Assembly: GCA_016209605.1 (NCBI GenBank)
Contig: JACQVS010000106.1
Coordinates: 6,916 to 70,915, forward strand
From: Planctomycetota bacterium
GTDB taxonomy: Bacteria; Planctomycetota; UBA8108; JACQVS01
Direction of reading: 5' to 3'
Length of the DNA stretch: 64,000 nucleotides
Position 1 is the first letter of the stretch. Every line of letters begins with the position of its first letter. A model generated the notes under the pieces. The model worked only from the letters and a program-made list of their open reading frames with translations. It did not search any database and was not told the origin of the DNA. Positions 39,301-54,371 of this stretch are shown here, one piece after another. A program made the position numbers and the translations under genes.

Positions 39301-39437
39301 GGATCCTCTCCTGTCACATTCCGTAACCCTTTTCTCTTAATCCAAAACCACTTATACCTTTTACTTGCTTATTTTACAGTTTACACCTTTTCTGGACTTT
39401 TGAGGAGGTAAAATCCGGCAAAAAGCCGGAGCTCACA

Positions 39438-41141
39438 TTAGATGCTCGCAATCGTCTCCTTCACGACTTCCTCGATGGTGGTGATCCCGTCATAAATGTG
39501 CAGGAGGCCGCTTTCGCGGAGGGTGCGCATGCCTTCTTCCTTGGCCACTTGCCGGAGCTCGGCCGTTGAGCCGCTCTTCATGATGGTCTCCTTGATGCGG
39601 TCGCTTGCCAGCATGATCTCGAGAACGGCGATACGGCCCTTGTAGCCGCTGCCGTTGCAGCGCTTGCAGCCTTTGCCGTAGTAGAACTGCTTCCCCTCGA
39701 CATCGGAGGGGGTCAGCTCCAGCTCGTAAAGCTCCTTGTCGGAGGGGTCGTACGGCATCTTGCACTCGGCGCAGATGCGCCGCACCAGCCGCTGGGCCAG
39801 GATGCCTTCCAGGGTGGCGGTGATCAAGAAAGGCTCCAGGCCAAGGTCGACGAGGCGGGTCACCGCTGAAGGCGCATCGTTGGTGTGCAGGGTGGTGAAA
39901 ACGATGTGTCCCGTCAAGGAAGCCTCCACGGAGATCTGCGCGGTCTCCAGGTCGCGCACCTCGCCGACCAGGATGATGTCCGGGTCCTGGCGCAGGATGG
40001 AGCGCAGGCAGTTCGCGAAGGTGACGCCGATTTCCTCGTTGATCTGCACCTGGACAATGCCCTCGAGGTCGTACTCCACCGGGTCCTCCGTGGTGATGAT
40101 CTTGACATCGATGGTATTGGCCTCATTGAGGGCTGAATAGAGGGTGGTGGTCTTGCCGGAGCCGGTTGGGCCGGTCACCAGGATGATGCCGTCGGGCTTG
40201 GCGATGAGGTTGCGGAAGATGCGCAGCTCATCTGACCTGAAGCCGAGCTGGTCGAGGTTGAGGCTGACGTTGGCGCGGTCGAGAACACGCAGCACCACGC
40301 TCTCGCCGAACATGGTCGGCAGGGTCGAGACGCGCAAGTCGACGGGATTGCCGCCGATATTGAGCTCGATGCGCCCATCCTGCGGCAGGCGGGTTTCGGC
40401 GATGTCCAGGTTGGAGAGCACCTTGACGCGGGAGATGAGCGCCCGGGCCAGCTGGATGGGGGGCGGCATCATTTCGTAAAGCACGCCGTCGACGCGGTAC
40501 CGCACCTTGAACTCGTGCTCGAAGGGCTCGAGGTGGATGTCGGAGCCGCGGTCGCGCACCGCCTGGAGGAGGACCATGTTGAGGAGCTTCACGACCGGGG
40601 CGGCGTTCACATCCTTCTCCAGCTGCTCGATGTTGATGTCTTCCCGCTTCGAGGTGATATCCAGCTTCCCATCGCCCATTTGACTGAGGTAATCACTGAC
40701 GCCGCTGCTCTTGTTATAATAGCGCTCGATGCATTGATGGATCGCCTCCTTGCCGCCGACCAGGGCCTTGAAGGCCGGGATCTTGGGCAGGGAGAAGCGC
40801 AAGTCCTCGAGGACGTTCAGGTTGGTCGGGTCGGCAATGGCCACCGTCAGGGTGTGGCCGTCGTAAAGCAAGGGCATGACCTCGAGGGTCTCGGCAGTGT
40901 TCTGATCCACCAGGTCCAGGACCTCGGGTGCGATCTCCGCCTTGGAGAGGTCGGCGAACTCCATGCCCGCCTGCTTGGCCAGGGCGCGGGTCAGATCGGC
41001 ATCGGTGATGGCGCCGCTCTCCATCAGGATCTGTCCGATAGCTCCGCCACTGTCCTTCTGCTTCTTGAGAGCTTGCTGGATATCAAACTCTTTCAAGATG
41101 TTCATTTCCTTGAGGATTTGACCGATAAAGTGTCGAGCCAT
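39438..41141 (-). CDS. GspE/PilB-family secretion ATPase (paralog 1) with N-terminal GspE_N/MshEN-like domain
   Basis: 567 aa; Walker A GPTGSGKTT, Asp and His boxes, tetracysteine CAEC…CKRC zinc motif. Confidence 0.9.
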   Translation of the reverse strand: MARHFIGQILKEMNILKEFDIQQALKKQKDSGGAIGQILMESGAITDADLTRALAKQAGMEFADLSKAEIAPEVLDLVDQNTAETLEVMPLLYDGHTLTVAIADPTNLNVLEDLRFSLPKIPAFKALVGGKEAIHQCIERYYNKSSGVSDYLSQMGDGKLDITSKREDINIEQLEKDVNAAPVVKLLNMVLLQAVRDRGSDIHLEPFEHEFKVRYRVDGVLYEMMPPPIQLARALISRVKVLSNLDIAETRLPQDGRIELNIGGNPVDLRVSTLPTMFGESVVLRVLDRANVSLNLDQLGFRSDELRIFRNLIAKPDGIILVTGPTGSGKTTTLYSALNEANTIDVKIITTEDPVEYDLEGIVQVQINEEIGVTFANCLRSILRQDPDIILVGEVRDLETAQISVEASLTGHIVFTTLHTNDAPSAVTRLVDLGLEPFLITATLEGILAQRLVRRICAECKMPYDPSDKELYELELTPSDVEGKQFYYGKGCKRCNGSGYKGRIAVLEIMLASDRIKETIMKSGSTAELRQVAKEEGMRTLRESGLLHIYDGITTIEEVVKETIASI

Positions 41142-41236
41142 GGGCGATTTCTCTTGAGCGGTTTAAGTTTCACAAGCAACTTCGAGTTGACGGAAACGCG
41201 GGCCATCTTCCTGCGGAACGCTGGCCAGATAAAAGT

Positions 41237-42925
41237 TCAGATCTCCATTTCGGCGCGATGGGTGATGCGCAGAACCTCCTCGATGGTGGTCATGCCGGCA
41301 AGCACCTTGCGGGCCGCATCCTCCTGCAGGGTAACCATGCCCTCGGAGCGGGCCTTGGCGCGGATCTCCTGGGTCGGCTTCTTCTTGAAGGACATATCCC
41401 GGAGGTCAGGGCTCATTTCCATGAGCTCGTAGACGCCTTTCCGCCCCTTGTATCCCTGATTGCTGCAGTTGGGGCAGCCGACCGGCTTGTACAGGGTCAG
41501 GCCCTCGAGCTTGTCGCGGGTCAAACCGATGGAGCGCATCTCCACATCGCTCGGCTCGTAGGGGGCCTTGCAGTGGGGGCAGAGGATGCGCACCAGGCGC
41601 TGGCCCATGATCGCCATGATCGCCGACGCCACCAGGAAGGGCTTCACGCCCATATCGATCAGGCGGGTGATGGCCGATGGGGCGTCGTTGGTGTGCAAGG
41701 TGCTGAACACCAGGTGACCGGTGAGCGCCGCTTGAATGGCGATGTCGGCCGTCTCGCGGTCGCGGACCTCGCCCACCAGGATGATGTTGGGGGCCTGGCG
41801 CATCATGGCGCGAAGGATGCGCTGAAAGGTCAAGCCGATCTCGTGGCGCACCTCCGACTGGTTGATGCCCGGCAAGTTGTACTCGATGGGATTTTCCGCG
41901 GTGATGATCTTGACATCGGGCCGGTTGAGTTTCTTGAGGGCGGCGTACAGGGTCGTGGTCTTGCCGGAGCCGGTCGGCCCGGTGACCAGGAAGATGCCGT
42001 TCGGGCGCTTGATGATCTTCTGAAACCGCTGGTAGTCGCTCTCGTGGAAGCCCAGCTCTTCCAAATCCACCAGCCCTTTCTCCTTGTCGAGGATGCGCAT
42101 GACGACGCTCTCGCCGTGGCGGCCCGGCAGCGCGGAGACGCGCAAGTCGATCTCGCGCCCCATGACGTTGATCTTGATGCGTCCGTCTTGAGGCCGCCGC
42201 TTCTCGGCCATGTCCATCCTGGACATGATCTTGATGCGCGAGAGGATGGGGCCCTGCAGCTTCTTGGGCGGATTCTCCTTCTCCAGGCAGACGCCGTCGA
42301 TGCGGTAGCGGATGCGCACGCGGTTCTCGAAGGGCTCGACGTGGATGTCGCTGGCCCGCTCTTTCAGGGCGTTGGAAATGAGCTGGGTCACGTACTTGAT
42401 GACGGGGGCGTCGTTGGCCTCGGCATCCTCGCCGGCGTACTCGCCGCGCCCCACCACCACCTGCTCGCCATCGGCCCCCAGGACGTCCTTCAAGTTGCCG
42501 GTCAAGCGGTAGTACTGGTCGAGGGCCTCTTCAATCGCCTCCGGCGTGGCGATGGCGCAGTCAACTTGCTGATTGAGCAGGAAGCGCAGGTCATCCAGGG
42601 TGGCCAGATCGAAGTCCGACATGGCGACGATCAGCTTGCCGTTTTGCTTGACCACCGGAATCACCTTGTGCTCGATGGCCACTTCCTTGGGTACCAGGCC
42701 GATCACCGGCTGCTTGATTTCGGCCTTGCTCAAGTCGGCGAATGGCAGCCCGTAATGGCGGGCCAGGGCGCGGCTCACCGATTTCTGGTCGCAGGCGTTG
42801 ATCTTGACCAGGGCTTCGCCGATGCGGCAGCTGTTTGCTCTAGAGTACTCAAGCGCCTTGGTGATCTGGTCATCGTTGACGGCGCCCATGGCCTTCAAAA
42901 TCTGTCCAATCGATTTTTTGTTCAA
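41237..42925 (-). CDS. GspE/PilB-family secretion ATPase (paralog 2)
   Basis: 562 aa; same architecture as paralog 1 (GPTGSGKTT, CPHC…CPNC). A divergent tandem duplicate. Confidence 0.9.
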   Translation of the reverse strand: MNKKSIGQILKAMGAVNDDQITKALEYSRANSCRIGEALVKINACDQKSVSRALARHYGLPFADLSKAEIKQPVIGLVPKEVAIEHKVIPVVKQNGKLIVAMSDFDLATLDDLRFLLNQQVDCAIATPEAIEEALDQYYRLTGNLKDVLGADGEQVVVGRGEYAGEDAEANDAPVIKYVTQLISNALKERASDIHVEPFENRVRIRYRIDGVCLEKENPPKKLQGPILSRIKIMSRMDMAEKRRPQDGRIKINVMGREIDLRVSALPGRHGESVVMRILDKEKGLVDLEELGFHESDYQRFQKIIKRPNGIFLVTGPTGSGKTTTLYAALKKLNRPDVKIITAENPIEYNLPGINQSEVRHEIGLTFQRILRAMMRQAPNIILVGEVRDRETADIAIQAALTGHLVFSTLHTNDAPSAITRLIDMGVKPFLVASAIMAIMGQRLVRILCPHCKAPYEPSDVEMRSIGLTRDKLEGLTLYKPVGCPNCSNQGYKGRKGVYELMEMSPDLRDMSFKKKPTQEIRAKARSEGMVTLQEDAARKVLAGMTTIEEVLRITHRAEMEI

Positions 42926-43289: not shown

Positions 43290-44030
43290 TCAAAAGGAAC
43301 GGATTTTCTGGGGCGGCCAGAACAGCAGGATGACTTTCCCCTTGATGAGGGCGCGGTCGACGCCGTGGAAGACGCGGCTGTCCTGGCTGTGCTGGCGGTT
43401 GTCGCCGAGCACATAATAGGTGTCGGGGGGGATCACTTCCGCGTGGTTTTCGTAAGGCGCCGGGTCCTTTTTGTTGATATAGTCCTCCTCCAGCTCCCGG
43501 CCGTTGATGAAGACCCGGCCGTTTCGGATCTGGATCCTCTCCCCCGGCAAGCCGATGACCCGCTTGATCAGGTCCTTGTTGAGGTCGAGCTTGGAGGCGA
43601 AGATGATGATATCGCCGCGTTCGATTTCGTAAAAAACCTTCTGCACCATGACCCGCTGCCCGTCCAGGAAGGTAGGCCTCATGCTCTCGCCGCGGACCAT
43701 GTAGGCCTCGGCGACATAGCTCTTGAGAATGAACGCCAGGAGCAGGGCCGCTCCCACGATCACCGCGATCTCAAGGAGCGGATCCTTCCGGGCCGGCTGG
43801 GAATTGGCCGCCGGGTCGTTCGCCGGGCTTGCCGCCGCAGGGCCTTGGGGGGCTAGCGGATCCTCCTGGGGCAAGAGGGGTAAATAGGGCTCCGAGGGCA
43901 TGTTGGAATCAGGGTATTCTGGGGGACTATGCATGAGTCTCTTCAGAGCAGTTGGTAGCTGTTTCGGGACCTGTTTCCAACAGTCCCGTCTTGTCCTTAT
44001 CATTTTACTGCTCGAGCCCGGCGGGCACAA
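43290..44030 (-). CDS. lepB: Signal peptidase I (start uncertain; several in-frame Met codons precede the TM helix)
   Basis: S26 motifs GESMRPT, catalytic Lys box KRVIGLPGE, GDNRQHSQDSR. Confidence 0.85.
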   Translation of the reverse strand: MCPPGSSSKMIRTRRDCWKQVPKQLPTALKRLMHSPPEYPDSNMPSEPYLPLLPQEDPLAPQGPAAASPANDPAANSQPARKDPLLEIAVIVGAALLLAFILKSYVAEAYMVRGESMRPTFLDGQRVMVQKVFYEIERGDIIIFASKLDLNKDLIKRVIGLPGERIQIRNGRVFINGRELEEDYINKKDPAPYENHAEVIPPDTYYVLGDNRQHSQDSRVFHGVDRALIKGKVILLFWPPQKIRSF

Positions 44031-46031: not shown

Positions 46032-47315
46032 GTGACAACAAAACCGCTCAATCCAGAAATATCCTCGACGGAAGCTGGTGATGATCAAATTCGCACCACG
46101 GTCTTCGAATACGACAGCTTCACCATCAAGAAGTCGATGCATCGCAACATCACCATCCTGGAGGCTGCCGGGAGCTTCACTCCCCAGCTTGGAAAAGAGC
46201 TGGAGCGCCAGGCCGGCCAGGTCCGCAATAACCTCGGGCTGGATCTTTCCGGGGTTATCGGCATCCAGCCGACCATTCTTTCCAGCTTGCAGTACATCCA
46301 CAAAAAAATCACTTCGCGCAGCAAATGCTTCCTGCTCTGCAATCCTCCTGACAAGCTGCTGGACATCTTGAAACTCAGCAACTTGACCGGCCAGTTCCAG
46401 ATCACCAACGGCCTCAGGGATTTCGATGCGATACCAGCTTCTTCTCCGGCGCCGCCGCAGGAGGTTCCGGTGGTAAAACCAGTCGCGGAGCAGGGGATCA
46501 AAGGCTTCGAACCGGTCCAGAAAGAAATCACCCAGTTGACTCAGACGCTCAAACGGACCGAAAAACTGGAAAAGGGATTGGACTCCGCCTGCAAATGCGT
46601 GCGCAAGATTCTTCCGGCCCAGCCGCCCAAGGTCTCTGGTTACGAGTTCGCCTTCTTCTTCTCCCCCTGCGACAAGGTCGGCGGCGATTTCTTCGATTTC
46701 ACCTTTGGCGATGACAATTTTCTGGATATTGCCATTGGAGATGTCTCCGGCCACGGCCTGGATTCGGCCATCATCATGGCCATGGCCAAGAAGGTCCTTC
46801 GCCTCCGCGCCAAGGATTTTCCCAGCCGCAACAGCAAGGAAATTCTCTGCCAGGTTAACAGGGATCTTTATGAAGACCTGGGCCAGCGCATTTTCATCAC
46901 GGTTTTGTTCGTGCGTATGAACCTCCGTTCCGGCCTCGTGCATTTCGCTCGCGCCGGACATGAGCCACCCATCCGATTTCAGCCGGGCGCCAAGGAGGCT
47001 CCAGTTTTTTGCAACTCGACGGGAATCGCCATCGGCATGGATTCCGGACCGCGTTTCACTCCGATTCTTGAGGAAAGGAGCATCCAGCTCTTGCCTGGGG
47101 AAGGGCTTCTTCTGTACACCGATGGGATCGTTGAAAGCTTGAACTCGAGGCGTGACCTGTTCTCCCGCCAGCGCCTGGCGTACACCCTGGAACACCTGCA
47201 GGAGCCGGTCACCGCCCAGTCCGTCATCGAAACCATCGGCGCGGCGGTTGATCAGTTCTCGCAAGGATTCCCCCAGGAAGATGACATGACTGCTATTGCA
47301 ATTCTGAGGAAATGA
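46032..47315 (+). CDS. STAS-domain (anti-sigma-antagonist-like) fused to a PP2C-type serine phosphatase
   Basis: 427 aa; N-terminal STAS fold signature (…ITILEAAGSF…LDLSGVIGIQPTILSSL…FLLCNPPDKLLDILKLSNL). C-terminal PP2C motifs (GGDFFDF, GDVSGHG, TDGIVE). Divergent from the GAF-PP2C gene. Confidence 0.8.
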   Translation: MTTKPLNPEISSTEAGDDQIRTTVFEYDSFTIKKSMHRNITILEAAGSFTPQLGKELERQAGQVRNNLGLDLSGVIGIQPTILSSLQYIHKKITSRSKCFLLCNPPDKLLDILKLSNLTGQFQITNGLRDFDAIPASSPAPPQEVPVVKPVAEQGIKGFEPVQKEITQLTQTLKRTEKLEKGLDSACKCVRKILPAQPPKVSGYEFAFFFSPCDKVGGDFFDFTFGDDNFLDIAIGDVSGHGLDSAIIMAMAKKVLRLRAKDFPSRNSKEILCQVNRDLYEDLGQRIFITVLFVRMNLRSGLVHFARAGHEPPIRFQPGAKEAPVFCNSTGIAIGMDSGPRFTPILEERSIQLLPGEGLLLYTDGIVESLNSRRDLFSRQRLAYTLEHLQEPVTAQSVIETIGAAVDQFSQGFPQEDDMTAIAILRK

Positions 47316-47319
47316 TTCT

Positions 47320-50300
47320 GTGGCATTCAAAGGTGATGTTGGCCAACTTTCACTGCTGAACATTTATCAGGCGTTGAACCTGAACCGGCAGTCGGGGATT
47401 CTGGTCATCAGTTCCGGTAAGGTGAAGAGGAAAGTCCGTTTCCTGCCCAACGGTATCCGCCTGCTCACGAACTATCCTGGCGATTATAAAGGCCTCAAGC
47501 AAATCCTGGCCAAGCTCAAGATCCTCACCGAGTCGCAATTCCAGAACGTCATCTCGACGAAAAACGACGATAAGATGCCGCTGGGCGATTTTCTGTTCCA
47601 CCGGAGGATCATCGACCAGGATCTGATCGAGGGGCCGATCAGCAAGCACATTCTGGAGCTGATTTATGAAACCTTCTCCTGGAAGTCGGCAAAGTACGAA
47701 TTTCACGCCGGCGGAGATACGGATGACCTCGAACTGTTCAGTCTGGATGGTCCTGGAAAATCCCTGACCTTCAAAGTTCCAAACGTCCTCATGGAGGTGG
47801 CGCGGCGCGAGGATGAGTGGAACCGCATCCTGGCTGAAATTCCCAGTGAAAAAGAAATCTTCGTTCCGGTCAATCGCGGCGAATTTCTCAAACGCAAGGA
47901 ATACGACGCCGAAGCCCCAACGGAGTCGATCCTCGAAATCAAGCAATTGATTGACGGGGAGAGGTCGATCGAGTCGATCTGCCAGGAGACGACTCTTTCA
48001 AACTACGAGACCTACATCGTTCTCAAGTTGCTCATGGCGGAGGGCGAAATCCGCGCCTTCACCATCGAAGAGAAGAAAGAGCTCGCTGAAAAGCTCCGCA
48101 AGAAAGGGAAGCTCCGGGAGCTGATCGACGTCTACAATTATCTTCTCACCCTGGAACCCGATGATCTGCAGACGCGGCTGAGCCTGGTGAGCCTATTAGA
48201 AAAGAAGAAAGACTTCTGCTCCTTCCTGGTCGAGCACTACCAGTATCTGGCCGAGCATTCCATCGCCAGCGGCGAGTTGAGTCAGGCCAAAAATTATCTC
48301 GCGCGCATGCTGGAAATCGAACCCACCTCCCCCGCAGCCCAGGAGTGGCTGTTTGAGGTGCACTGCAACCTCGGGGAGAACCGAGAAGCCCTGGAAGCAG
48401 GAAGGCAAATCGTCGAATCTGCCAAGCAAGCCAAGGAGTATTCGCGCGGAACCTCGATCCTGGAAAGGATGATCAAGGTCTTCCCCGAGGATCCTTCCCT
48501 CTACCATGAAGCCGCCGACTTGTATCAGCTCAACGGCAACACGGCGGAGGCGGTTCGCTGCCTGAAGGCGGCCGCCTCCATTTACGAAAGCAGAAGGGAT
48601 CTCACTCGCCTTCGCAAAACCTACGAGAGGATCGCCGGCCTGGACTCATCCGAGGGCTCCACCCTGCGGAAAATCCTGGACCTGGAAAAGAAGAAGAACA
48701 AGCGGGGATTGAACACCTTTTCAGTGGCCTTCGCCGGTCTGGCCGCCGCTCTGATCGCGTTCACGGTCTACTGGATCACCATGGAAGTCTTCTGCCGCCG
48801 TGCCTTTGCGGCAGTGGACCGGGATGTCCAGACCCTCGCTGAAAACGGCCGTTTCAAAGACGCCCAGATGATCTTGAACTCCCTGGTCCGGGATTTCCCT
48901 TTGAGCGCCAAGCGCTGGGAAATCTCCAATCGCTTGAACTCCATTGCCACCGACCAGTGGAAAATGGTTTCCAAGATCCGCCAGGATGCCGAAAAAGAAA
49001 ACCTGCTCTTCGGCTCCTTCCTGGCGCAGGTCGAGAAGCTGCGCCGCGAGCGGAAATATGTGGAGGCTCTCAACCAGATTCAAGGGATCCGCCGGGTGGG
49101 CCTGTCCCCTGCCAACCTCAACATCCTGAAGAAAATCGAAACGGAAATCATCGCCATCTTCAACGAAGCGCAAGCGACCTTGAAAAAAGCCCAGGCGCTG
49201 ACCCAAAGCGGCAAGCTTCAGGAAGCACACCCCCTCTACATCCAGCTGCTCATGGAGTATTCGAGCACCCCGGTCGCGCAAAATTTGAAAATTCCCATGC
49301 AGCTGAAGACGGTCCCCGCCGGCGCGGAAGTGTTCGTCAACGAACAGATGGTTGGCAAGTCGCCATTGACTTTTTATTACCATCCCTTTGAAAAGTTCCG
49401 CCTGAAAATCGTCAAGGAGGGATTCCAGGAATTCCTTTGCGGAGATCCCGCCACGGAGCAACCATGCTTCGATTTCACCAAGGACTGGACCCTGTCGGCT
49501 TACCTGAAGCGCCTGCCGGCGTGGACGGTCAGCGCGCTCGATCCCTTGGGGGGCGCATACCTCTTCGATGGGAAGAACTTGTACTACTCCACTCAGAACG
49601 GCAAGGTCCTTGGTCATAGAATCGATTCGCGGGAAACCGCCTGGACCTATACCACCCCCAAGAACCTGCCGATCAAAAGCGAGCTGCGGCTCTGGAAGAA
49701 CTTGATTTATTTTGGAGCCATGGATGGCTTGTTCATTGCCATCGACAAGGACAGCGGCCAAAGCCGCCTGGAGCTGGTCCCCTTGAAGAACAGCCATCCC
49801 TACCGGCTGGTTCCCTCTCCGGCTTCCGAAAACGGCACCGTGGCGGTGGTCGCCAAGCCTTATGTCCTGGGCTTGAATTTGCAATCCGGGACCCTGGTGT
49901 GGACCTATCCCTGTGATAATCTGGTGGAAGCCCCGCCGCAGCCCTTGAAAGGCTCCATCGTGTGCGTCACCACGGCAGGGGAGATCCTGTTCCTGGACGA
50001 GGGCCTTGGCAGTCTCAAACAGGCGATCGACCTCAAAACTGCACTTACTTCGGCGGGAGTCGAGTACGGCGGCGCTTATTTCATCACGGACAGTCAAGGG
50101 ACCATATACCGGATCCAGCTGTCCACTGCAGAAATACAATGGAGCTTCCGGTCCGAAATCACCGGTCTCTCGCCTCCAAGCGTGAAGAACGATCAGGTCA
50201 TTGTCAGCTCGAGCCACGGCAATATCCTGGCTCTCGACATCAACAAGGGAAGTCGCAAGTGGGACGTCAAGGTGCAAGACAGTTTCCCCGCTCCCGGCAT

Positions 50301-50487
50301 CATTGCCAACAACCAGTACTATATCGGCTCTCAAAAAGGCGTATTGTTCTGTTTTGACATGCAAACTGGGCATTATTACTGGACCTTCCAGGCGGATGGG
50401 CCCTTTATCGCTCCACCCAGGCTCGAATCGGGGCTGGTCATCATCGGAAGCGAGAAAAATACGTTATACTCCTTTAGGGAGAAGTAA
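47320..50487 (+). CDS. Large multidomain protein: N-terminal DUF4388 (PATAN) domain, TPR repeats, one TM helix, PEGA domain, C-terminal PQQ/BamB-like beta-propeller repeats
   Basis: 1055 aa. N-terminus GDVGQLSLLNIYQALNLNRQSGILVI is characteristic of DUF4388. There is a TM helix at about residue 470 (FSVAFAGLAAALIAFTVYWI). PEGA-like VPAGAEVFVNEQMVGKSP…KIVKEGF. The C-terminal repeats have spaced W/G/Y patterns typical of PQQ propellers. Confidence 0.7.
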   Translation: MAFKGDVGQLSLLNIYQALNLNRQSGILVISSGKVKRKVRFLPNGIRLLTNYPGDYKGLKQILAKLKILTESQFQNVISTKNDDKMPLGDFLFHRRIIDQDLIEGPISKHILELIYETFSWKSAKYEFHAGGDTDDLELFSLDGPGKSLTFKVPNVLMEVARREDEWNRILAEIPSEKEIFVPVNRGEFLKRKEYDAEAPTESILEIKQLIDGERSIESICQETTLSNYETYIVLKLLMAEGEIRAFTIEEKKELAEKLRKKGKLRELIDVYNYLLTLEPDDLQTRLSLVSLLEKKKDFCSFLVEHYQYLAEHSIASGELSQAKNYLARMLEIEPTSPAAQEWLFEVHCNLGENREALEAGRQIVESAKQAKEYSRGTSILERMIKVFPEDPSLYHEAADLYQLNGNTAEAVRCLKAAASIYESRRDLTRLRKTYERIAGLDSSEGSTLRKILDLEKKKNKRGLNTFSVAFAGLAAALIAFTVYWITMEVFCRRAFAAVDRDVQTLAENGRFKDAQMILNSLVRDFPLSAKRWEISNRLNSIATDQWKMVSKIRQDAEKENLLFGSFLAQVEKLRRERKYVEALNQIQGIRRVGLSPANLNILKKIETEIIAIFNEAQATLKKAQALTQSGKLQEAHPLYIQLLMEYSSTPVAQNLKIPMQLKTVPAGAEVFVNEQMVGKSPLTFYYHPFEKFRLKIVKEGFQEFLCGDPATEQPCFDFTKDWTLSAYLKRLPAWTVSALDPLGGAYLFDGKNLYYSTQNGKVLGHRIDSRETAWTYTTPKNLPIKSELRLWKNLIYFGAMDGLFIAIDKDSGQSRLELVPLKNSHPYRLVPSPASENGTVAVVAKPYVLGLNLQSGTLVWTYPCDNLVEAPPQPLKGSIVCVTTAGEILFLDEGLGSLKQAIDLKTALTSAGVEYGGAYFITDSQGTIYRIQLSTAEIQWSFRSEITGLSPPSVKNDQVIVSSSHGNILALDINKGSRKWDVKVQDSFPAPGIIANNQYYIGSQKGVLFCFDMQTGHYYWTFQADGPFIAPPRLESGLVIIGSEKNTLYSFREK

Positions 50488-50490
50488 CCC

Positions 50491-51585
50491 GTGAGCTTAA
50501 TCATTTTCAATCCATTCAAGTTTTTCAAAGCGCGGCAGCTCAAAAAAGCACTCGCCGACTACGAAAAAAATCCTGGTCTGGAAGAAACCGTCAGCGTGGT
50601 TCAGCTTTTCCTCAAGTGCGGGCGATGCACCGAAGCATTCCAGCACGCCGAGGCCGGGCGGCAGAAATTTCCAGCTTCCAGCGAGCTGAACATTCTGCGC
50701 CAGCTGGCCTACAATAAACTGGGAGCTTTGGAGTGCAGGGCGCTGGCAAAGCAGATCGCCGCCCACCCCCGCCCTGAGACCATCGCCAAGGCTGTCGAGA
50801 TCTGGCGCTCGTGCGAGAACTACCGCCAATGTGAGCGACTGAGGCATAAATGGAGAGATCGTTTTCCCGACAGCTGGATTCTCCAGTTTGCCATTGGAAA
50901 ATACCTTTTCCATCGCTCCCTGGACAAAAAGATCAAAGATCAAAGCTCTGAAATAAAAGTCCAGTGCCTGGAGCAGCTGAAGAGAGCCGCAGCTCTCAAT
51001 CCAGACAACTATAAATCTTTGCTTTATCTGGCCACCATCCTTTCGGGCACGGGATCGGTCTCGGATGCTCTGAAAACTCTGGATCGTTTGCTGAAGCTGT
51101 ATCCTGGCGACCAGAGGGCGGTGGCGCTGCGAGAGCGGATCCAGCGGTCCCAAAGAGGCCGCCAGGCGCCCCCGGGGCCCTTTGCCGCCGAGGCCTTCAA
51201 GGCGCCGCGGGAGGCCAAAGCAGGCCAGGAAGGCTCTGACGACATCTTCAACGACTTGCGGGAATCACCTTCCATTTTCGCCGCCGTGATTGAAGAAGGC
51301 CCAAAGGACAATCTTCAGGCGCAATGTTATTTCGCCGAAAACAGCTGTTTCAACTTCGAACAAGGGGAGGCGGCCTTCCGAGACCTCATGCACGCCCTGC
51401 GAGCGGCTTCCAAGCGCATGGGCCTCGGGGAGCTGAAGACCTGCATCCTGGAAGGCGGATCCTGGCGGATCTTTCTGGGCAACCACCCTGTCAAATCACT
51501 GTTGATTTGCACCGACAAGAATTTTCAGGAGACCAGATTTGAAACGGCGATCCGCCGGATCATTCAAGAGAAGGTCCTGGCGTGA
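50491..51585 (+). CDS. TPR-repeat protein with a probable C-terminal Roadblock/LC7-like domain
   Basis: 364 aa; helical TPR-like N-terminal two thirds. The C-terminal ~100 aa have a Roadblock-like strand/helix pattern (…TCILEGGSWRIFLG…SLLICTDKN…). Moderate confidence. Confidence 0.5.
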   Translation: MSLIIFNPFKFFKARQLKKALADYEKNPGLEETVSVVQLFLKCGRCTEAFQHAEAGRQKFPASSELNILRQLAYNKLGALECRALAKQIAAHPRPETIAKAVEIWRSCENYRQCERLRHKWRDRFPDSWILQFAIGKYLFHRSLDKKIKDQSSEIKVQCLEQLKRAAALNPDNYKSLLYLATILSGTGSVSDALKTLDRLLKLYPGDQRAVALRERIQRSQRGRQAPPGPFAAEAFKAPREAKAGQEGSDDIFNDLRESPSIFAAVIEEGPKDNLQAQCYFAENSCFNFEQGEAAFRDLMHALRAASKRMGLGELKTCILEGGSWRIFLGNHPVKSLLICTDKNFQETRFETAIRRIIQEKVLA

Positions 51586-51610: not shown

Positions 51611-51961
51611 ATGAAGAATATTCTGAAGGATTTGAATCAAGAAGCCGGCATCAAGGGGAGCATGGTGATAACGCCGGATGGCATCATGGTCGCCTCCGCC
51701 CTCGGAGCGAATTTCGAGGAGGATGTGGTCGCCGCCATTGTCTCTTCATTGCTCGTGGCCGTGAGGAGAACACTCGCTCGTATCAAGGCTCCCGATGGAC
51801 TCAATTCCTGCATCTTGTATGCCAATAACGGCAAGATCATGTTTTATGACATGGGCAAAGCCTTTCTGGTGGTCGTTGCCGATATGAATCTGAAGATGGA
51901 CAGCAGCATCATCGCCATCAAGAGCGCGATCTATCGCATCCAGAACCGGCGGGTCGCATGA
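51611..51961 (+). CDS. Roadblock/LC7-domain protein (MglB-like paralog)
   Basis: 116 aa; GIKGSMVITPDGIMVAS…FLVVVADMNL pattern typical of Roadblock/LC7. Confidence 0.8.
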   Translation: MKNILKDLNQEAGIKGSMVITPDGIMVASALGANFEEDVVAAIVSSLLVAVRRTLARIKAPDGLNSCILYANNGKIMFYDMGKAFLVVVADMNLKMDSSIIAIKSAIYRIQNRRVA

Positions 51962-52098
51962 AAGCAGGTGGAGGGGGGCTACCTAGGAGGAAGGCAGAAG
52001 GATCGAGGTCTAAAAATTCCGAAAACATTCAACGATTCGACGATTTGAAATCCAGCATGCTATCATCCACTGAGTAGTCATCCTGTTGGAGAAGAGGA

Positions 52099-53115
52099 AT
52101 GGTCCAAATCAATTTCGCTCTAAAAGAAGTCAATTGCAAAATCGTCTTCTATGGCCCCGGCCTTAGTGGCAAAACCACCAACTTGGAGGTCATTCACAGC
52201 AAAGCTCCCAAGTCCAATGTGGGAGAACTCACCTCCATTGCAACGGAAGGAGACCGGACTCTTTTCTTCGACTTTCTCCCTTTGAACCTTGGGCAGGTTG
52301 CAGGGATGACCACCAAATTCCAGATCTACACGGTCCCCGGCCAGGTCTACTACAACTCCACCAGAAAACTGGTGCTCCAGGGGGCTGACGGAATCGTTTT
52401 CGTCGCCGACTCGCGGCGGGGCAAGATTGAAGAAAACCTCGAGTCCTTCAAGAATCTTGAAGATAACATGAAGGAGTACGGGATGGATCTTCACACCATC
52501 CCCCTGGTTTTCCAGTACAACAAGCGGGATCTCCAGGACATTTACACCATTGAAGAGCTGGAAAAGGCTCTCAACCACTTTGGAGCGCCTTACTTCGAAG
52601 CCGTCGCCGTCAACGGCGATGGAGTCTTCCCGACGTTGAAAAAAGTCTCCAGCATGGTCCTGGAGAACCTGAACAAGCAGCAGAGCCCGACCAAGGTCAA
52701 GGCCAAAAAGCCTCAAGCCGCCAAGGAGCCGGAGCTGGTTCCGGCCGGCAATGTTTCGAAAGAAGAGGCTGCCGCAGCCGCTTCAGGACCGGTTCGGGGC
52801 CCCGCGCCTCGCGGCGCTCCGGTCAGACCGCAAGCGGCGGCGCCAGTCCGGCATCAAAGTCCGGGCGCCGTCGTGGTCAAGGAAAAGGTCACCAGCGCGC
52901 CCGGCGTCAAGCCGATAGAGCGGAAAGTTCCGGCCGGCGGCTCCGTGGTCAAGCGTAGGCCGATGGCCGAGCCCGTGGCGGCGCCAGCGATATCGGCTGC
53001 CGCCAAGGGAGGTTCCGGTGGAGGCAAGCCGATCTTCTGGATCGTCATTCTGGTGGTCCTCGCAGGCGCTGCAGCGGCCATTTTCTTCAGTGGAATTTGG
53101 GAAAAATTCATTTAG
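52099..53115 (+). CDS. mglA: MglA-family Ras-like GTPase with a ~140-aa C-terminal extension ending in a transmembrane helix
   Basis: The first ~195 aa are closely similar to Myxococcus MglA (INCKIVFYGPGLSGKTTNL, DRTLFFDFLPL, YTVPGQVYY, QYNKRDL). A Pro/Ala/Lys-rich linker follows, then IFWIVILVVLAGAAAAIFFSGIW at the extreme C-terminus. Confidence 0.9.
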   Translation: MVQINFALKEVNCKIVFYGPGLSGKTTNLEVIHSKAPKSNVGELTSIATEGDRTLFFDFLPLNLGQVAGMTTKFQIYTVPGQVYYNSTRKLVLQGADGIVFVADSRRGKIEENLESFKNLEDNMKEYGMDLHTIPLVFQYNKRDLQDIYTIEELEKALNHFGAPYFEAVAVNGDGVFPTLKKVSSMVLENLNKQQSPTKVKAKKPQAAKEPELVPAGNVSKEEAAAAASGPVRGPAPRGAPVRPQAAAPVRHQSPGAVVVKEKVTSAPGVKPIERKVPAGGSVVKRRPMAEPVAAPAISAAAKGGSGGGKPIFWIVILVVLAGAAAAIFFSGIWEKFI

Positions 53116-53227
53116 GAGTTCAAACCCCTGAGCCAATTCGGTGCCATCGGGTTCTGGCCGTTCGGCTGGATGAGACGGAAGGAGGTCAGCCATTATAACC
53201 GACAGTGATAAAATCCGTGAAAGCCGT

Positions 53228-53701
53228 TTGGTTTTCTACAAGGATGATATTGACAAGATCAATACCGTCCTCAAGGAGTTCTTGAGCCTTTCCGATTCAA
53301 AATGCAACATGCTGATTGACAAGGAAGGCCATATGGTGACCAAGGCCGGGCACACGGAGGACTTCGACATGCAAGCGGTGGCCGCCCTGGTCGCCGGCAG
53401 CTACGCGGCAACGAGGGAAATGGCCCGCCTGCTCGGAGAAGAGGAGTTTTCCGTGCTCTTCCATCAAGGCAAGAAGGACAACATCCAGTTGACCTTGATC
53501 GGAGACCGGACCATTCTCGCGACCGTCTTCGATGAACGGACCACCATCGGCATGGTCCGCCTCTATGCCAAAGAAGCCTCGGAAAAGCTCACCAAGATTT
53601 TCGCGGAAATCGGAACCCGCCGCGTCGATGGGGAAAACCTCCTCGGCTCGGAATTTTCGGAGTCCGCCCGGAATCAGCTGGACAGTTTCTTCGCCGAGTG
53701 A
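53228..53701 (+). CDS. mglB: MglB-like Roadblock/LC7 GTPase-activating protein
   Basis: 157 aa; closely parallels Myxococcus MglB (…EEFSVLFHQGKKDNIQLTLIGDRTILATVFDERTTIGMVRLYAKEASEKLTKIF…). Confidence 0.85.
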   Translation: MVFYKDDIDKINTVLKEFLSLSDSKCNMLIDKEGHMVTKAGHTEDFDMQAVAALVAGSYAATREMARLLGEEEFSVLFHQGKKDNIQLTLIGDRTILATVFDERTTIGMVRLYAKEASEKLTKIFAEIGTRRVDGENLLGSEFSESARNQLDSFFAE

Positions 53702-53765: not shown

Positions 53766-54371
53766 CTACTCCCCTTCCTTGGGCCTGTCGGTGTTCTCCC
53801 GAATGTCCAGGAGGAGCTGAACCAGGTCATTTTGCTGGTCTCCGACATCCGAGAGCAGGAACGCCAGCTCCCCCAGAAACTTGAATCCCAGATAAAGCGC
53901 TGCCCCCAAGATCGCCCAGCCGATCAAGCACAGCATCATCACGGCAATGCTTTCGATCGCCCCCTCGATTTTCAAGTAAACCGTGATCCCCATGCCCCCC
54001 AGCACCAGGAAAGCTTGCAGGTAGGCGAAAAAAAGGAGCAGCTCGGACAGCGCGCGCAATCTCAAAAAGCGGGATGGGGCATTGGGGTTGAAGTATCGGA
54101 CGGCGCTTTGTCCCGTGCCAAAAGTTTCGTAATAGGGCCGGGCCGAGCGCCGCCGGCGCCGGCTCATCTTTTCAATCAGCGCCAGCCGCTTCCAATCCTC
54201 CTCGAGACCCGCTTGCCTCGAGGCTTGCAGCTCTTCCAGCTGCTGGATCTCTTCCTGGGTCCGGAGAACGGTCTTGGCGCCGCAGCGCGGGCATTCGATC
54301 TTCTTGCCGAGGGATTCCTCGGGCGCTGAAAACTTGCTTTTGCAGTTCGGGCAGATGCTTTTTATGGCCAT
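53766..54371 (-). CDS. Membrane protein with an N-terminal MJ0042-type zinc ribbon
   Basis: 201 aa; CPNC…CPRC ribbon followed by three predicted TM helices. Confidence 0.55.
   Translation of the reverse strand: MAIKSICPNCKSKFSAPEESLGKKIECPRCGAKTVLRTQEEIQQLEELQASRQAGLEEDWKRLALIEKMSRRRRRSARPYYETFGTGQSAVRYFNPNAPSRFLRLRALSELLLFFAYLQAFLVLGGMGITVYLKIEGAIESIAVMMLCLIGWAILGAALYLGFKFLGELAFLLSDVGDQQNDLVQLLLDIRENTDRPKEGE

What the first reader, a model, noticed from the sequence alone, without database searches (positions are those of the whole stretch)
52099..53115. Tail-anchored MglA: a small GTPase with a C-terminal transmembrane helix
MglA proteins are normally ~195-aa soluble cytoplasmic GTPases that relocalise between cell poles. 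This one has a complete G domain with G1, switch I/II and NKxD intact. It then continues with a ~120-aa Pro/Ala/Lys-rich disordered linker and ends with a strongly hydrophobic 23-residue segment (IFWIVILVVLAGAAAAIFFSGIW) just 5 residues before the stop. That is a tail-anchor topology. Constitutive membrane tethering would change how a polarity GTPase can operate. It may instead function as a fixed-location switch.
Basis: seen in the sequence. Interest (0 to 1): 0.75.

Follow-up and report, generated by a model that had tools for sequence, protein, structure and literature searches.

The report
Membrane-anchored MglA GTPase, a conserved family
This gene really does encode an MglA polarity GTPase joined by a long floppy, positively charged linker to a C-terminal membrane helix, and it is one member of a large family in uncultured Planctomycetota that I could not find described in the searchable literature.

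Summary
ORF 52099-53115 (+) encodes 338 aa. Residues 3-193 align without gaps to M. xanthus MglA (E 5.5e-70), with the intrinsic Arg finger (R53), TVPGQ and NKRD intact. A 117-aa Ala/Pro/Lys-rich linker (net +13) follows. A 23-residue hydrophobic segment comes next, four residues before the stop.

It is not a frameshift or misassembly. Of 182 long homologues, 175 carry the hydrophobic segment, and 164 have at most 20 residues after it. Basic residues lie upstream of it, so the G domain is cytoplasmic.

The gene sits in a conserved five-gene module:
- a bitopic PATAN-TPR/beta-propeller protein
- a TPR protein whose C-terminus is a Roadblock domain
- a small Roadblock protein
- the anchored MglA
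- a full-length MglB

The 150 closest G-domain representatives are all long. They end in a TM helix, in a MinD-like amphipathic membrane-targeting motif, or in other modules.

Most likely this is an inner-membrane-tethered, MglB-regulated switch. Its output is inferred, and type IV pilus or polarity control is the best guess. The reference survey of prokaryotic small GTPases excluded sequences longer than 240 aa, and I found no paper describing this form. I rate it a new variant of a known kind, of moderate to high interest.

The parts
52099..53115 (+). Complete gene for the membrane-anchored MglA (338 aa). It is identical to NCBI MBI4584265.1, 'MAG: GTPase [Planctomycetes bacterium]'.
52099..52677 (+). 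G domain, aa 1-193. It is a Group-1-type MglA with GPGLSGKT, R53 (intrinsic Arg finger), T54, TVPGQ (78-82) and NKRD (141-144).
   Evidence: PDB phmmer: 5ymx_A E 5.5e-70, 3t12_A E 2.9e-66, gap-free over 3-193. The domain is nearly invariant across 28 family members.
52678..53031 (+). Disordered cationic linker, aa 194-311 (Ala/Pro/Val/Lys/Gly-rich, net +13).
   Evidence: Composition. AF2 pLDDT is mostly below 50. Family-wide, the linker median is 115 aa (83-224), the median net charge is +15, and the charge is positive in 98.9%.
52861..52929 (+). Short conserved island inside the linker, aa 255-277 (GAVVVKEKVTSAPGVKPIERKVP). It is a candidate short linear binding motif and is specific to the query's subclade.
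   Evidence: Conserved block in alignment A1. The regex G[VIL][KRQN]x[IVLM][EQ][RK] matches 77 of 175 TM-bearing homologues, a median of 40 aa before the TM. AF2 gives a weak beta-hairpin at 258-262/273-277 with pLDDT about 56.
53032..53100 (+). C-terminal transmembrane helix (tail anchor), aa 312-334, IFWIVILVVLAGAAAAIFFSGIW.
   Evidence: KD 2.86 and Hessa sum -3.8. Helix with pLDDT 82-89. Present in 175 of 182 long homologues with positive-inside charge bias. The family keeps AAxGAxLYFSG, with G332 at least 90% conserved.
53101..53115 (+). Four-residue periplasmic stub (EKFI) and the stop codon.
   Evidence: The median number of residues after the hydrophobic span in the family is 5.
53228..53701 (+). 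mglB (157 aa). A Roadblock-domain GAP, full length including the C-terminal helix region.
   Evidence: PDB phmmer: 6izw_B E 5.7e-34 over query aa 1-157 (chain 5-159). Pfam Robl_LC7 E 2e-11. NCBIfam MglB model E 4.9e-25, below its cutoff. Found downstream of mglA in most loci.
51611..51961 (+). Small Roadblock/LC7 protein (116 aa) immediately upstream of mglA.
   Evidence: Pfam Robl_LC7 E 1.6e-11. Best PDB match is a generic Roadblock protein, 7yh1_D E 4.4e-5. A homologue lies upstream of mglA in 66 of 80 loci.
50491..51585 (+). TPR protein (364 aa) whose C-terminal ~110 aa form a third Roadblock-like domain.
   Evidence: Pfam TPR_14/TPR_19. hhalign of the C-terminal alignment against the Roadblock-116 family gives probability 98.4%, E 6.9e-15. 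A homologue (median 377 aa) sits in this position in 63 of 66 loci.
47320..50487 (+). Bitopic receptor-like protein (1055 aa). It has an N-terminal PATAN (DUF4388) domain and TPRs, one TM (aa 469-487, preceded by KKKNKR), then a PEGA domain and a PQQ/BamB-like beta-propeller.
   Evidence: Pfam DUF4388 E 3e-14, TPR, PEGA E 9e-6, PQQ_2 E 2.7e-26. TM and charge. Syntenic in most loci.
46032..47315 (+). PP2C (SpoIIE-type) phosphatase with a weak STAS-like N-terminus. It ends 4 nt before the PATAN gene. It is lineage-specific and not part of the conserved core.
   Evidence: Pfam SpoIIE E 4.7e-38, STAS E 4.6e-4. Found only in L001, L004 and L068.
53766..54371 (-). Zn-ribbon membrane protein (201 aa, 2-3 TM segments) convergent on mglB. 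It is conserved only in the closest relatives.
   Evidence: Pfam Zn_ribbon_4 E 1.3e-3, weak. TM segments. tblastn hits in L001-L009.
38062..42925 (-). pilC (T2SSF) and two tandem pilB-like ATPases (T2SSE + MshEN). These are a possible target machinery lying 3-8 kb upstream of the module.
   Evidence: Pfam T2SSE E 1e-139 and 5e-137, MshEN, T2SSF E 4e-64. PilB lies likewise upstream in L001. pilB/pilC lie directly downstream of mglB in L076 and L078.

Best explanation
The gene encodes a genuine Group-1-type MglA GTPase that is permanently tethered to the cytoplasmic membrane.

Topology. A C-terminal transmembrane helix with a four-residue periplasmic stub holds the protein in the inner membrane. 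A ~117-residue disordered, strongly cationic linker lets the cytoplasmic G domain sample the space within some tens of nanometres of the membrane.

Switch. The G domain keeps the MglA catalytic set: P-loop, intrinsic Arg finger R53, Q82 in TVPGQ, and NKRD. It is encoded next to a full-length MglB. It therefore most likely cycles between GTP and GDP under MglB GAP control, as in Myxococcus and Thermus.

What differs. In the characterised systems the GDP form is cytosolic and the GTP form is captured at a pole. Here both states stay on the membrane, so the switch can only change which membrane-proximal partners are engaged. Any localisation must arise by lateral diffusion and capture.

Likely partners are the co-conserved products of the five-gene module:
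- a bitopic PATAN-TPR protein with a periplasmic beta-propeller (input or scaffold)
- a TPR protein ending in a Roadblock domain
- a small Roadblock protein (possible heterodimeric regulator or adaptor)
- MglB

The most likely output is spatial control of an envelope machine, with type IV pili as the best candidate.

Shown here: sequence architecture, its conservation, charge topology, the MglA and MglB homologies, and synteny.
Inferred: actual membrane insertion, GTPase cycling, the partners, and the output.

Sub-confidences: membrane-anchored MglA about 0.9, MglB-regulated switch about 0.75, type IV pilus or polarity output about 0.35.
For: - ORF and motifs.
- Hydrophobic tail: KD 2.86, Hessa sum -3.8, the only such segment in the protein. 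AF2 helix 312-331 with pLDDT 82-89 and a low-confidence linker.
- Conservation: 114 of 120 top hits and 54 of 69 complete ORFs from GTDB species representatives have a C-terminal TM. Of 182 long homologues, 175 carry a hydrophobic segment and 164 have at most 20 aa after it. K+R averages 4.0 upstream against 0.77 downstream.
- Linker: length about 115 aa and positive charge (median +15, positive in 98.9%) are conserved although the sequence is not.
- Some relatives carry 50-120 extra Pro/Ala/Ser-rich residues after the TM (L059, L063, L064, L070, L072). That fits a segment that truly spans the membrane.
- Sister clades replace the TM with polybasic GFFxRLF-type endings that resemble the MinD membrane-targeting helix. 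Different anchors serving one apparent purpose argues that membrane attachment is the selected function.
- C-terminal class follows the G-domain tree.
- MglB matches full length, E 5.7e-34.
- Five-gene synteny. Third Roadblock domain.
- PATAN domains bind PilB1 and PilC and localise to the membrane in Synechocystis, and MglA/MglB genes often neighbour PATAN genes (bioRxiv 10.1101/2021.06.11.447907).
- pilB/pilC lie near the module here and in L001, and directly downstream of mglB in Zixibacteria.
Against: - No experimental or dedicated-predictor evidence of membrane insertion exists. Hydrophobicity scales and AF2 are indirect.
- The AF2 model of the G domain was poor (mean pLDDT 53.8) because the alignment is shallow and nearly invariant. 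Structure rests on sequence homology to solved MglA.
- The link to type IV pili is weak in Planctomycetota. Outside the five-gene core, flanking genes are unrelated housekeeping genes in most loci: MetRS, GcvT, acyl-CoA dehydrogenase. PilB adjacency was seen only in the window and in L001.
- All relatives found are MAGs, so nothing is known about the cell biology of the hosts.
- No GEF (RomR/RomX) homologue was identified in the window.
Confidence: 0.8

Rival explanations
1. Same anchored switch, different job. The module controls a membrane process other than type IV pili, such as cell polarity for budding or division, membrane invagination, or holdfast or envelope assembly in Planctomycetota. 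The periplasmic beta-propeller protein would read envelope state.
For: - The five-gene core travels on its own. Its flanks are unrelated housekeeping genes in most loci.
- pilB/pilC adjacency is limited to the window, L001 and the Zixibacteria loci.
- The PATAN protein carries periplasmic PEGA and BamB-like propeller domains.
Against: - Where tested, PATAN domains act on PilB/PilC.
- Characterised MglA proteins act on motility machines (PMC4316618, PMC11580455).
- Nothing in the window points to a specific alternative machine.
Confidence: 0.25
2. The membrane tether is a storage form. The G domain is released into the cytoplasm by regulated proteolysis within the linker or the TM, as happens with membrane-tethered regulators freed by intramembrane proteolysis. 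The conserved linker island or the Gly/Ala-rich TM would be the cleavage site.
For: - A conserved island (…SPGVKPIERK…) sits in an otherwise variable linker.
- The TM contains helix-weakening Gly/Ala runs.
- A signal peptidase I gene lies nearby, at 43290-44030.
Against: - The island is confined to one subclade: 77 of 175.
- Signal peptidase I acts on the periplasmic side and is not part of the conserved module.
- No site-2 protease or rhomboid was seen in the module.
- Sister clades use reversible amphipathic anchors instead. That suggests membrane residence itself is the function.
Confidence: 0.08
3. The hydrophobic C-terminus is not a membrane anchor. It would be a sorting or processing signal (PEP-CTERM, GlyGly-CTERM, LPXTG-like) or a protein-protein interaction helix.
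For: In the query, a Gly-rich stretch (GGSGGGK) precedes the hydrophobic segment.
Against: - There is no N-terminal signal peptide, and the N-terminus is the conserved MglA beta1 strand.
- The basic cluster lies before the hydrophobic segment, not after it.
- The Gly run is not conserved in homologues.
- No NCBIfam sorting-signal model matched at E <= 0.01.
- A GTPase would have no nucleotide supply outside the cytoplasm.
Confidence: 0.04
4. Assembly or sequencing artefact. A frameshift or chimeric join fused a normal 195-aa mglA to an unrelated membrane-protein fragment.
For: - GC content rises from about 0.49 to about 0.63 across the gene.
- Shadow ORFs exist on the opposite strand at 52783-53193.
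Against: - The GC rise is explained by the Ala/Pro/Gly-rich linker.
- More than 170 independent homologues from different assemblies share the architecture. They include two Planctomycetota assemblies with chromosome-scale contigs of 9.18 Mb (L001/P0049) and 7.87 Mb (P0019).
- P0002 (85% identical) is collinear through the junction.
- In every locus, mglB follows only after a 400-900 nt extension.
Confidence: 0.01

Closest known systems
Group 1 MglA with MglB (Myxococcus xanthus, Thermus thermophilus, Bdellovibrio)
   Same: - The G domain is about 56% identical to M. xanthus MglA over 193 positions and aligns gap-free.
- It has the intrinsic Arg finger, TVPGQ and NKRD.
- The adjacent mglB is full length, including the C-terminal helix region.
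- TPR and PATAN proteins lie in the neighbourhood, as noted for other mgl loci.
   Different: - 338 aa instead of about 195.
- Adds a ~117-aa cationic disordered linker and a C-terminal TM helix.
- The characterised proteins are soluble and exchange between the cytoplasm and the poles.
- Two extra Roadblock-domain proteins are in the operon.
- No RomR/RomX was seen.
SofG (M. xanthus MglA paralogue with terminal extensions)
   Same: It is an MglA-family GTPase that is longer than the core G domain and keeps the Arg finger (PMC4316618).
   Different: SofG has no TM anchor, is not MglB-regulated, and is given as 239 aa (PMC4316618). The protein here has a membrane anchor and a cognate mglB.
Eukaryotic lipid-anchored small GTPases (Ras/Rho/Rab: hypervariable, often polybasic C-terminal region plus prenyl or palmitoyl anchor). 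This comparison rests on general knowledge.
   Same: The logic is the same: an N-terminal G domain, a flexible and variable C-terminal spacer that is often basic, and a membrane anchor at the extreme C-terminus. The switch operates on the membrane surface.
   Different: - The anchor is a protein TM helix, not a lipid. It is therefore irreversible, and GDI-type extraction is not possible.
- The linker is about ten times longer.
- This is analogy, not homology of the tail.
Miro (C-terminal tail-anchored mitochondrial GTPase) and SR-beta (N-terminal TM small GTPase)
   Same: They are Ras-superfamily GTPases fixed to a membrane by their own TM helix. Miro is described with a C-terminal TM in PMC6321465. 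JGI auto-annotation even labels family members 'SRP receptor subunit beta'.
   Different: - They are eukaryotic and belong to different subfamilies.
- Miro has two GTPase domains and EF hands.
- SR-beta is anchored at its N-terminus.
- The JGI label is automated and is not supported by the MglA-specific motifs.
MinD-type C-terminal amphipathic membrane-targeting sequence (E. coli MinD ends ...KKGFLKRLFGG, quoted from memory)
   Same: Sister clades of this MglA end in ...KKKKGFFKRLFGLK...KKKGFFGRLFGRG and similar sequences after a long linker. The position and the apparent purpose match those of the TM helix here.
   Different: The window protein has a full TM helix, not an amphipathic helix. 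Amphipathic anchors are reversible and can be nucleotide- or dimerisation-dependent. The resemblance was judged by eye and by a simple regex.
Bacterial tail-anchored inner-membrane proteins (a general class, e.g. E. coli DjlC, Flk, ElaB, quoted from memory)
   Same: A single TM within about 30 residues of the C-terminus, no signal peptide, and a cytoplasmic N-terminal domain.
   Different: I know of no small GTPase in that class, and none turned up in the literature searches.

Membership tests
MglA family, Group 1 (Wuichet & Sogaard-Andersen 2014, PMC4316618) | Ras-like G domain with G1-G5, closest to characterised MglA proteins | tested here: met
   phmmer against PDB: 5ymx_A E 5.5e-70 and 3t12_A E 2.9e-66. 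The next best hit, Rab28, scores only 2.6e-5. GPGLSGKT and NKRD are present.
MglA family, Group 1 (Wuichet & Sogaard-Andersen 2014, PMC4316618) | Intrinsic arginine finger adjacent to the conserved G2 threonine | tested here: met
   D52-R53-T54 aligns to the DRT of M. xanthus MglA. It is invariant in 28 family members.
MglA family, Group 1 (Wuichet & Sogaard-Andersen 2014, PMC4316618) | G3 motif TVPGQ (not DxxGQ or GTPGQ) | tested here: met
   T78-V79-P80-G81-Q82 is invariant. The criterion is quoted.
MglA family, Group 1 (Wuichet & Sogaard-Andersen 2014, PMC4316618) | Gene coupled to an mglB (Roadblock/LC7) gene | tested here: met
   mglB lies at 53228-53701, 112 nt downstream, with E 5.7e-34 to M. 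xanthus MglB. The coupling holds in most of the 80 loci.
MglA family, Group 1 (Wuichet & Sogaard-Andersen 2014, PMC4316618) | Single-domain 'small' GTPase of 150-240 aa (operational cut-off of that survey) | tested here: not met
   The protein is 338 aa. The survey excluded sequences longer than 240 aa. This is an operational size limit, not a biochemical criterion, so I file the protein as an MglA-family member with a variant architecture.
MglA family, Group 1 (Wuichet & Sogaard-Andersen 2014, PMC4316618) | GTP binding and MglB-stimulated hydrolysis | not testable with these tools
   This needs purified proteins.
Tail-anchored membrane protein | Single hydrophobic TM-length segment within about 30-40 residues of the C-terminus | tested here: met
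   The segment is aa 312-334 of 338, with KD 2.86 and Hessa sum -3.8. AF2 helix has pLDDT 82-89.
Tail-anchored membrane protein | No N-terminal signal peptide and no other TM segment | tested here: met
   All top-scoring hydrophobic windows fall in 309-316. The N-terminus is the conserved MglA beta1 strand, MVQINFALKEVNCKIV.
Tail-anchored membrane protein | N-terminal domain on the cytoplasmic side (positive-inside rule) | tested here: met
   Family mean is 4.0 K+R in the 15 aa before the segment against 0.77 after it. The linker net charge is positive in 98.9%. This is a prediction from sequence only.
Tail-anchored membrane protein | Actual post-translational membrane insertion | not testable with these tools
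   This needs fractionation or topology reporters.
C-terminal sorting signals (PEP-CTERM / GlyGly-CTERM / LPXTG type) | N-terminal signal peptide, a conserved signature motif just before the TM, and a basic cluster after the TM | tested here: not met
   There is no signal peptide. The Gly run is not conserved in homologues. The basic cluster precedes the TM. No NCBIfam sorting-domain model matched at E <= 0.01.
MglB (Roadblock GAP), for the neighbour at 53228-53701 | Roadblock/LC7 fold with the MglB-specific C-terminal extension, aligned full length to characterised MglB | tested here: met
   6izw_B E 5.7e-34, with query 1-157 aligned to chain 5-159. The NCBIfam MglB equivalog scores 88.5 bits, below its 200-bit cutoff. 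It is therefore an MglB homologue, not a curated equivalog.
PATAN (DUF4388) domain protein, for the neighbour at 47320-50487 | Match to PF14332 above the gathering score | tested here: met
   53.6 bits against a cutoff of 25, E 3e-14, aa 4-168.

The most novel reading that the evidence does not exclude
Membrane anchoring may be a major, previously overlooked mode of bacterial MglA signalling rather than a curiosity.

- In Planctomycetota, the five-gene unit would be a self-contained transmembrane G-protein signalling platform. Its parts are a receptor-like PATAN-TPR/beta-propeller protein, a TM-anchored MglA, MglB, and two further Roadblock proteins.
- It would be a bacterial counterpart of eukaryotic membrane-anchored small-GTPase and Roadblock (Ragulator-like) platforms.
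- Sister lineages would reach the same end with MinD-like amphipathic anchors.

This would mean that the principle of 'G domain, hypervariable basic linker, membrane anchor' arose in bacteria independently of lipid modification. The soluble Myxococcus/Thermus MglA would then be the special case.
Probability: 0.25. Interest if true: 0.8.

Novelty: new variant of a known kind. Interest (0 to 1): 0.6.

Why it matters
MglA is the model bacterial Ras-like polarity switch. Current models rest on its free exchange between the cytoplasm and the cell poles. A conserved lineage in which MglA cannot leave the membrane must work differently, through lateral diffusion and capture or through local switching next to a receptor-like partner.

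The finding also exposes a gap in the standard classification. That survey discarded every MglA-clade sequence longer than 240 aa. Yet the 150 nearest G-domain representatives are all long, and roughly 60% of them carry an evident membrane-attachment device.

The arrangement parallels eukaryotic Ras and Rab proteins, which have a variable basic tail and a membrane anchor. It therefore gives a bacterial test case for why small GTPases are placed on membranes. It also offers a handle on cell organisation in Planctomycetota, a phylum whose polarity and membrane biology are poorly understood.

The claims are directly testable with simple localisation, topology and GTPase assays.

Tried and rejected
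- The look-up of encoding contigs with the exact protein found no record. Context therefore came from the genome-contig scan instead.
- AlphaFold2 on the 28-sequence family alignment gave a poor G-domain model (mean pLDDT 53.8). I used it only for the TM helix and linker and ran no fold search. Sequence homology to solved MglA made one unnecessary.
- The linker motif was first thought to be family-wide. A regex count showed it only in the query's subclade, 77 of 175.
- I looked for further conserved partners by clustering all ORFs of the 80 loci. Nothing beyond the five-gene core is widespread, and the next clusters are MetRS, GcvT and other housekeeping genes. A general type IV pilus linkage in Planctomycetota is therefore not supported by synteny.
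- The small Roadblock protein was tested for similarity to solved structures. No PDB chain named MglC appeared at E <= 1, only generic or dynein-type Roadblock proteins.
- Literature searches combined MglA with Planctomycetes, transmembrane, tail-anchored, amphipathic helix and C-terminal extension. None found a description of this form. The held supplements of PMC4316618 contain no planctomycete entries. The library lacks most subscription-journal papers, so absence there is not proof.
- Promoter and terminator scans gave only a weak promoter-like site at 52037-52066 and nothing decisive about operon boundaries.
- No tRNA genes are present in the window.
- Sorting-signal, frameshift and misassembly readings were considered and rejected (see the rival explanations).
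Full report
**1. The observation**

A purine-rich GGAGAAGAGGA lies directly upstream of the start.

Against all PDB chains, residues 3-193 align without a gap to residues 3-193 of M. xanthus MglA (5ymx_A, E 5.5e-70). They also align to T. thermophilus MglA (3t12_A, E 2.9e-66). The next best hit, Rab28, reaches only 2.6e-5. Pfam sees only generic Arf/Ras/Gtr1 similarity.

The MglA hallmarks are all present:
- GPGLSGKT (19-26)
- D52-R53-T54, the intrinsic arginine finger next to the G2 threonine
- T78-V-P-G-Q82
- NKRD (141-144)

After residue 193 comes a 117-residue segment with 24 Ala, 17 Pro, 15 Val, 13 Lys and 13 Gly, and a net charge of +13. Then comes IFWIVILVVLAGAAAAIFFSGIW (312-334), followed by EKFI and the stop.

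The best 19-residue Kyte-Doolittle window scores 2.86. A simple sum on the Hessa biological scale is -3.8 kcal/mol. All high-scoring windows fall at 309-316. The only slip is that four residues, not five, follow the hydrophobic segment.

**2. Not an artefact**

The exact protein is NCBI MBI4584265.1, 'MAG: GTPase [Planctomycetes bacterium]'.

Of the 120 best database hits (52-85% identity, mostly 308-364 aa, from many independent assemblies), 114 have a hydrophobic 19-mer within the last 40 residues. Five of the exceptions are 200-267-aa sequences that end inside the linker. The sixth (P0064) scores just below the threshold.

A scan of one genome per GTDB species found 592 relatives. In the best 80 loci, all 69 complete ORFs are 305-492 aa, and 54 have the C-terminal TM.

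Alignment A1 shows that the 85%-identical P0002 is collinear through the G-domain/linker junction. In every locus, mglB begins only 400-900 nt after the end of the G domain. The rise in GC across the gene follows from the Ala/Pro/Gly-rich linker. The opposite-strand ORFs at 52783-53193 are shadows.

**3. Anatomy of the family**

*G domain.* It is almost invariant across the family.

*Linker.* It is variable in sequence but conserved in kind. The median length is 115 aa (83-224). The composition is Ala/Pro/Arg/Gly/Ser/Lys-rich. The median net charge is +15, and it is positive in 98.9% of 177 proteins.

*Linker island.* In the query's own subclade, a short island (…VVxExVxxSPGVKPIERKxP…, query 255-277) is conserved about 40 residues before the TM. 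It occurs in 77 of 175 TM-bearing proteins, so it is not a family-wide feature.

*Hydrophobic segment.* It has a median uncharged span of 25 residues and a median of 5 residues after it. The 15 residues before it hold on average 4.0 Lys+Arg, against 0.77 after it. This positive-inside pattern places the G domain and linker in the cytoplasm.

*Helix sequence.* The helix keeps more than hydrophobicity: AAxGAxLYFSG, with G332 at least 90% conserved.

*AlphaFold2.* It models 312-331 as a helix at pLDDT 82-89 and leaves the linker at low confidence. The G domain was badly modelled because the alignment is shallow and nearly invariant. I rely on sequence homology for that part.

*Longer tails.* Eleven of the 175 relatives have more than 20 residues after the TM; several of these carry 50-120 Pro/Ala/Ser-rich residues. 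That fits a segment that truly crosses the membrane.

**4. Genomic context**

The gene is the fourth in a co-directional run with short gaps of 4, 3, 25, 137 and 112 nt. In order, the genes are:

- a STAS(weak)-PP2C phosphatase, 46032-47315
- a 1055-aa protein with an N-terminal PATAN/DUF4388 domain and TPRs, one TM (469-487, preceded by KKKNKR), then PEGA and a PQQ/BamB-like beta-propeller, 47320-50487
- a 364-aa TPR protein, 50491-51585
- a 116-aa Roadblock/LC7 protein, 51611-51961
- the anchored mglA
- a 157-aa MglB, 53228-53701

.

The MglB aligns end to end with M. xanthus MglB, including the C-terminal helix region (6izw_B, E 5.7e-34).

A profile comparison shows that the last ~110 residues of the TPR protein are a Roadblock-like domain (hhalign probability 98.4%, E 6.9e-15 against the Roadblock-116 family). 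The module therefore encodes three Roadblock-domain proteins.

tblastn and ORF clustering over the 80 loci show that the last five genes of this run form the conserved core: PATAN-TPR-propeller, TPR-Roadblock, Roadblock, long MglA and MglB. The TPR-Roadblock gene is in place in 63 of 66 loci. The phosphatase, the convergent Zn-ribbon membrane protein (53766-54371) and the HEAT-repeat protein (54436-56838) are shared only with the closest relatives. Beyond the core, the flanks in other lineages are housekeeping genes.

Upstream on the other strand lie pilC and two pilB-like ATPases with MshEN domains (38062-42925). PilB is similarly placed in L001. In two Zixibacteria loci, pilB, a shorter pilT-like ATPase and pilC directly follow mglB.

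**5. The wider picture**

I searched the G domain alone (aa 1-195) against 1.84 billion representatives. It gave 2279 hits at E <= 1e-30. All 150 best representatives are long (244-717 aa), with the G domain at the N-terminus.

Their C-termini fall into classes:
- 59 have a TM segment, of which 49 are tail-anchor type.
- At least 31 end in a polybasic stretch followed by GFFxRLF-like residues, for example …KKKKGFFKRLFGLK, …KKKGFFGRLFGRG and …KKKRFFLFRWFKKSKKS. By eye these closely resemble the MinD membrane-targeting helix (a comparison from memory).
- About 60 have other endings. These include a SurA_N fusion (PF13624, E 5.7e-10) and a TPR fusion.

On a neighbour-joining tree of the G domains, the classes form blocks, and the TM forms make up one large region of the tree.

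Clustering at 50% identity inflates the number of variable long forms, so these are not frequencies. They do show that long, membrane-directed MglA proteins are numerous and diverse. They also show that different anchors occupy the same position. I take this as the strongest indirect argument that membrane attachment is the selected function of the extension.

**6. How it most likely works**

*Shown:* an MglA catalytic core with all Group-1 residues, a cognate MglB, a conserved cationic flexible spacer, a conserved C-terminal TM with cytoplasm-in charge bias, and a conserved five-gene neighbourhood that includes a second bitopic membrane protein.

*Inferred:* the protein is inserted as a tail-anchored inner-membrane protein and cycles GTP/GDP under MglB control. 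Neither state can leave the membrane. The switch therefore gates interactions with membrane-proximal partners instead of controlling cytoplasm-to-pole partitioning.

The PATAN-TPR/propeller protein is the obvious candidate for input or scaffold. The TPR-Roadblock and small Roadblock proteins may pair, as Roadblock domains usually do, to form a regulator or adaptor. The subclade-specific linker island may be a docking peptide, possibly for a TPR domain.

Several points make type IV pilus control the best guess for the output:
- PATAN domains bind the N-terminus of PilB1 and PilC and localise to the membrane in Synechocystis.
- MglA/MglB genes are known neighbours of PATAN genes (bioRxiv 10.1101/2021.06.11.447907).
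- MglA acts through TPR effectors on pili in Myxococcus (PMC11580455).

The synteny evidence within Planctomycetota is thin, so I put this at about 0.35.

**7. Rivals**

- A different membrane process as output (0.25).
- Regulated proteolytic release of the G domain (0.08).
- A sorting signal or other non-TM role for the tail (0.04).
- An artefact (0.01).

The evidence for and against each is given in the rival explanations.

**8. Comparison with what is known**

By every sequence criterion of Wuichet and Sogaard-Andersen, this is a Group 1 MglA coupled to MglB. It fails only their operational size limit. That survey excluded the 39 MglA-clade sequences longer than 240 aa. It mentions no Planctomycetes in the text or in the held supplements.

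SofG is the known extended paralogue, but it has no anchor and no MglB dependence.

Functionally, the design parallels eukaryotic Ras/Rho/Rab proteins (variable basic tail plus lipid anchor). It also parallels the TM-anchored GTPases Miro and SR-beta. These are analogies only.

Seven literature searches found no description of a TM-anchored or MinD-like-anchored MglA. The library lacks most subscription-journal papers.

**9. Verdict**

It is not a singular oddity. It is a member of a large family, so far unnamed as far as I can tell, found almost entirely in uncultured Planctomycetota.

I rate it a new variant of a known kind, with interest 0.6. The interest comes from the change it forces in how an MglA switch can work, and from the blind spot it reveals in the classification of prokaryotic small GTPases. 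It is limited by the absence of any experimental system, because all hosts are MAGs, and by the inferred nature of the output.

Noticed in passing
window 50491-51585 (+): The 364-aa TPR protein upstream of the small Roadblock gene ends in a domain that profile comparison identifies as Roadblock/LC7-like (hhalign probability 98.4%, E 6.9e-15). Pfam does not detect it. With MglB and the 116-aa protein, the module has three Roadblock-domain proteins.
   Followed up: yes
proteins P0137-P0285, e.g. P0244, P0277, P0164; loci L016, L076, L078: Many long MglA relatives outside the TM clade end in a polybasic stretch plus GFFxRLF-type residues that look like the MinD membrane-targeting helix. At least 31 of the 150 nearest representatives do so. 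This was judged by regex and by eye only.
   Followed up: partly
L076:10001-15907 and L078:10001-15849 (Zixibacteria MAGs): A long, amphipathic-tailed mglA is followed in the same direction by mglB, pilB, a shorter pilT-like ATPase and pilC. This is an operon-level link between long MglA and the type IV pilus motor.
   Followed up: partly
L077, L080 (Nitrospinota-labelled MAGs); P0153: The MglA G domain is fused to a SurA-like N-terminal domain (PF13624, E 5.7e-10). SurA-type domains are usually periplasmic chaperone modules, so finding one on a cytoplasmic GTPase is odd.
   Followed up: partly
window 53766-54371 (-): A 201-aa protein with an N-terminal zinc ribbon and 2-3 TM segments is convergent on mglB and conserved in L001-L009. 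M. xanthus GltJ uses a zinc-ribbon domain next to its MglA-binding GYF domain (PMC11135422). This is a resemblance only; no GYF domain is seen here.
   Followed up: partly
window 38062-42925 (-): Two tandem PilB-like ATPases, each with an MshEN (c-di-GMP-binding type) N-terminal domain, lie next to pilC. No pilT, pilM-Q or pilin genes were recognised in the ORFs scanned between 27.8 and 47 kb.
   Followed up: partly
window 44064-45848 (-) and 46032-47315 (+): Two divergently arranged PP2C/SpoIIE phosphatases are present, one with a GAF domain and one with a weak STAS-like N-terminus. The second ends 4 nt before the PATAN gene. This hints at partner-switching or phospho-control of the module in this lineage.
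   Followed up: no
window 58646-62275 (+): A 1209-aa RHS-repeat protein (PF05593, E 2.7e-50), probably a polymorphic toxin. A LarC-type nickel-insertion protein lies at 57002-58297.
   Followed up: no
window 53032-53100 (+); alignment A1 columns 385-412: The TM helix of the family keeps a specific pattern (AAxGAxLYFSG, with G332 at least 90% conserved) rather than mere hydrophobicity. This suggests helix-helix packing with itself or with another membrane protein of the module.
   Followed up: no
proteins P0243, P0246, P0232, P0255, P0268, P0272: Another class of long MglA relatives ends in acidic Phe/Pro motifs (DSPFIDLQPF, DFDPF, DFNPY) that look like short linear docking motifs. A further class ends in a recurrent '…VVLKLRIxV…RRAA' segment. 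Neither was analysed.
   Followed up: no
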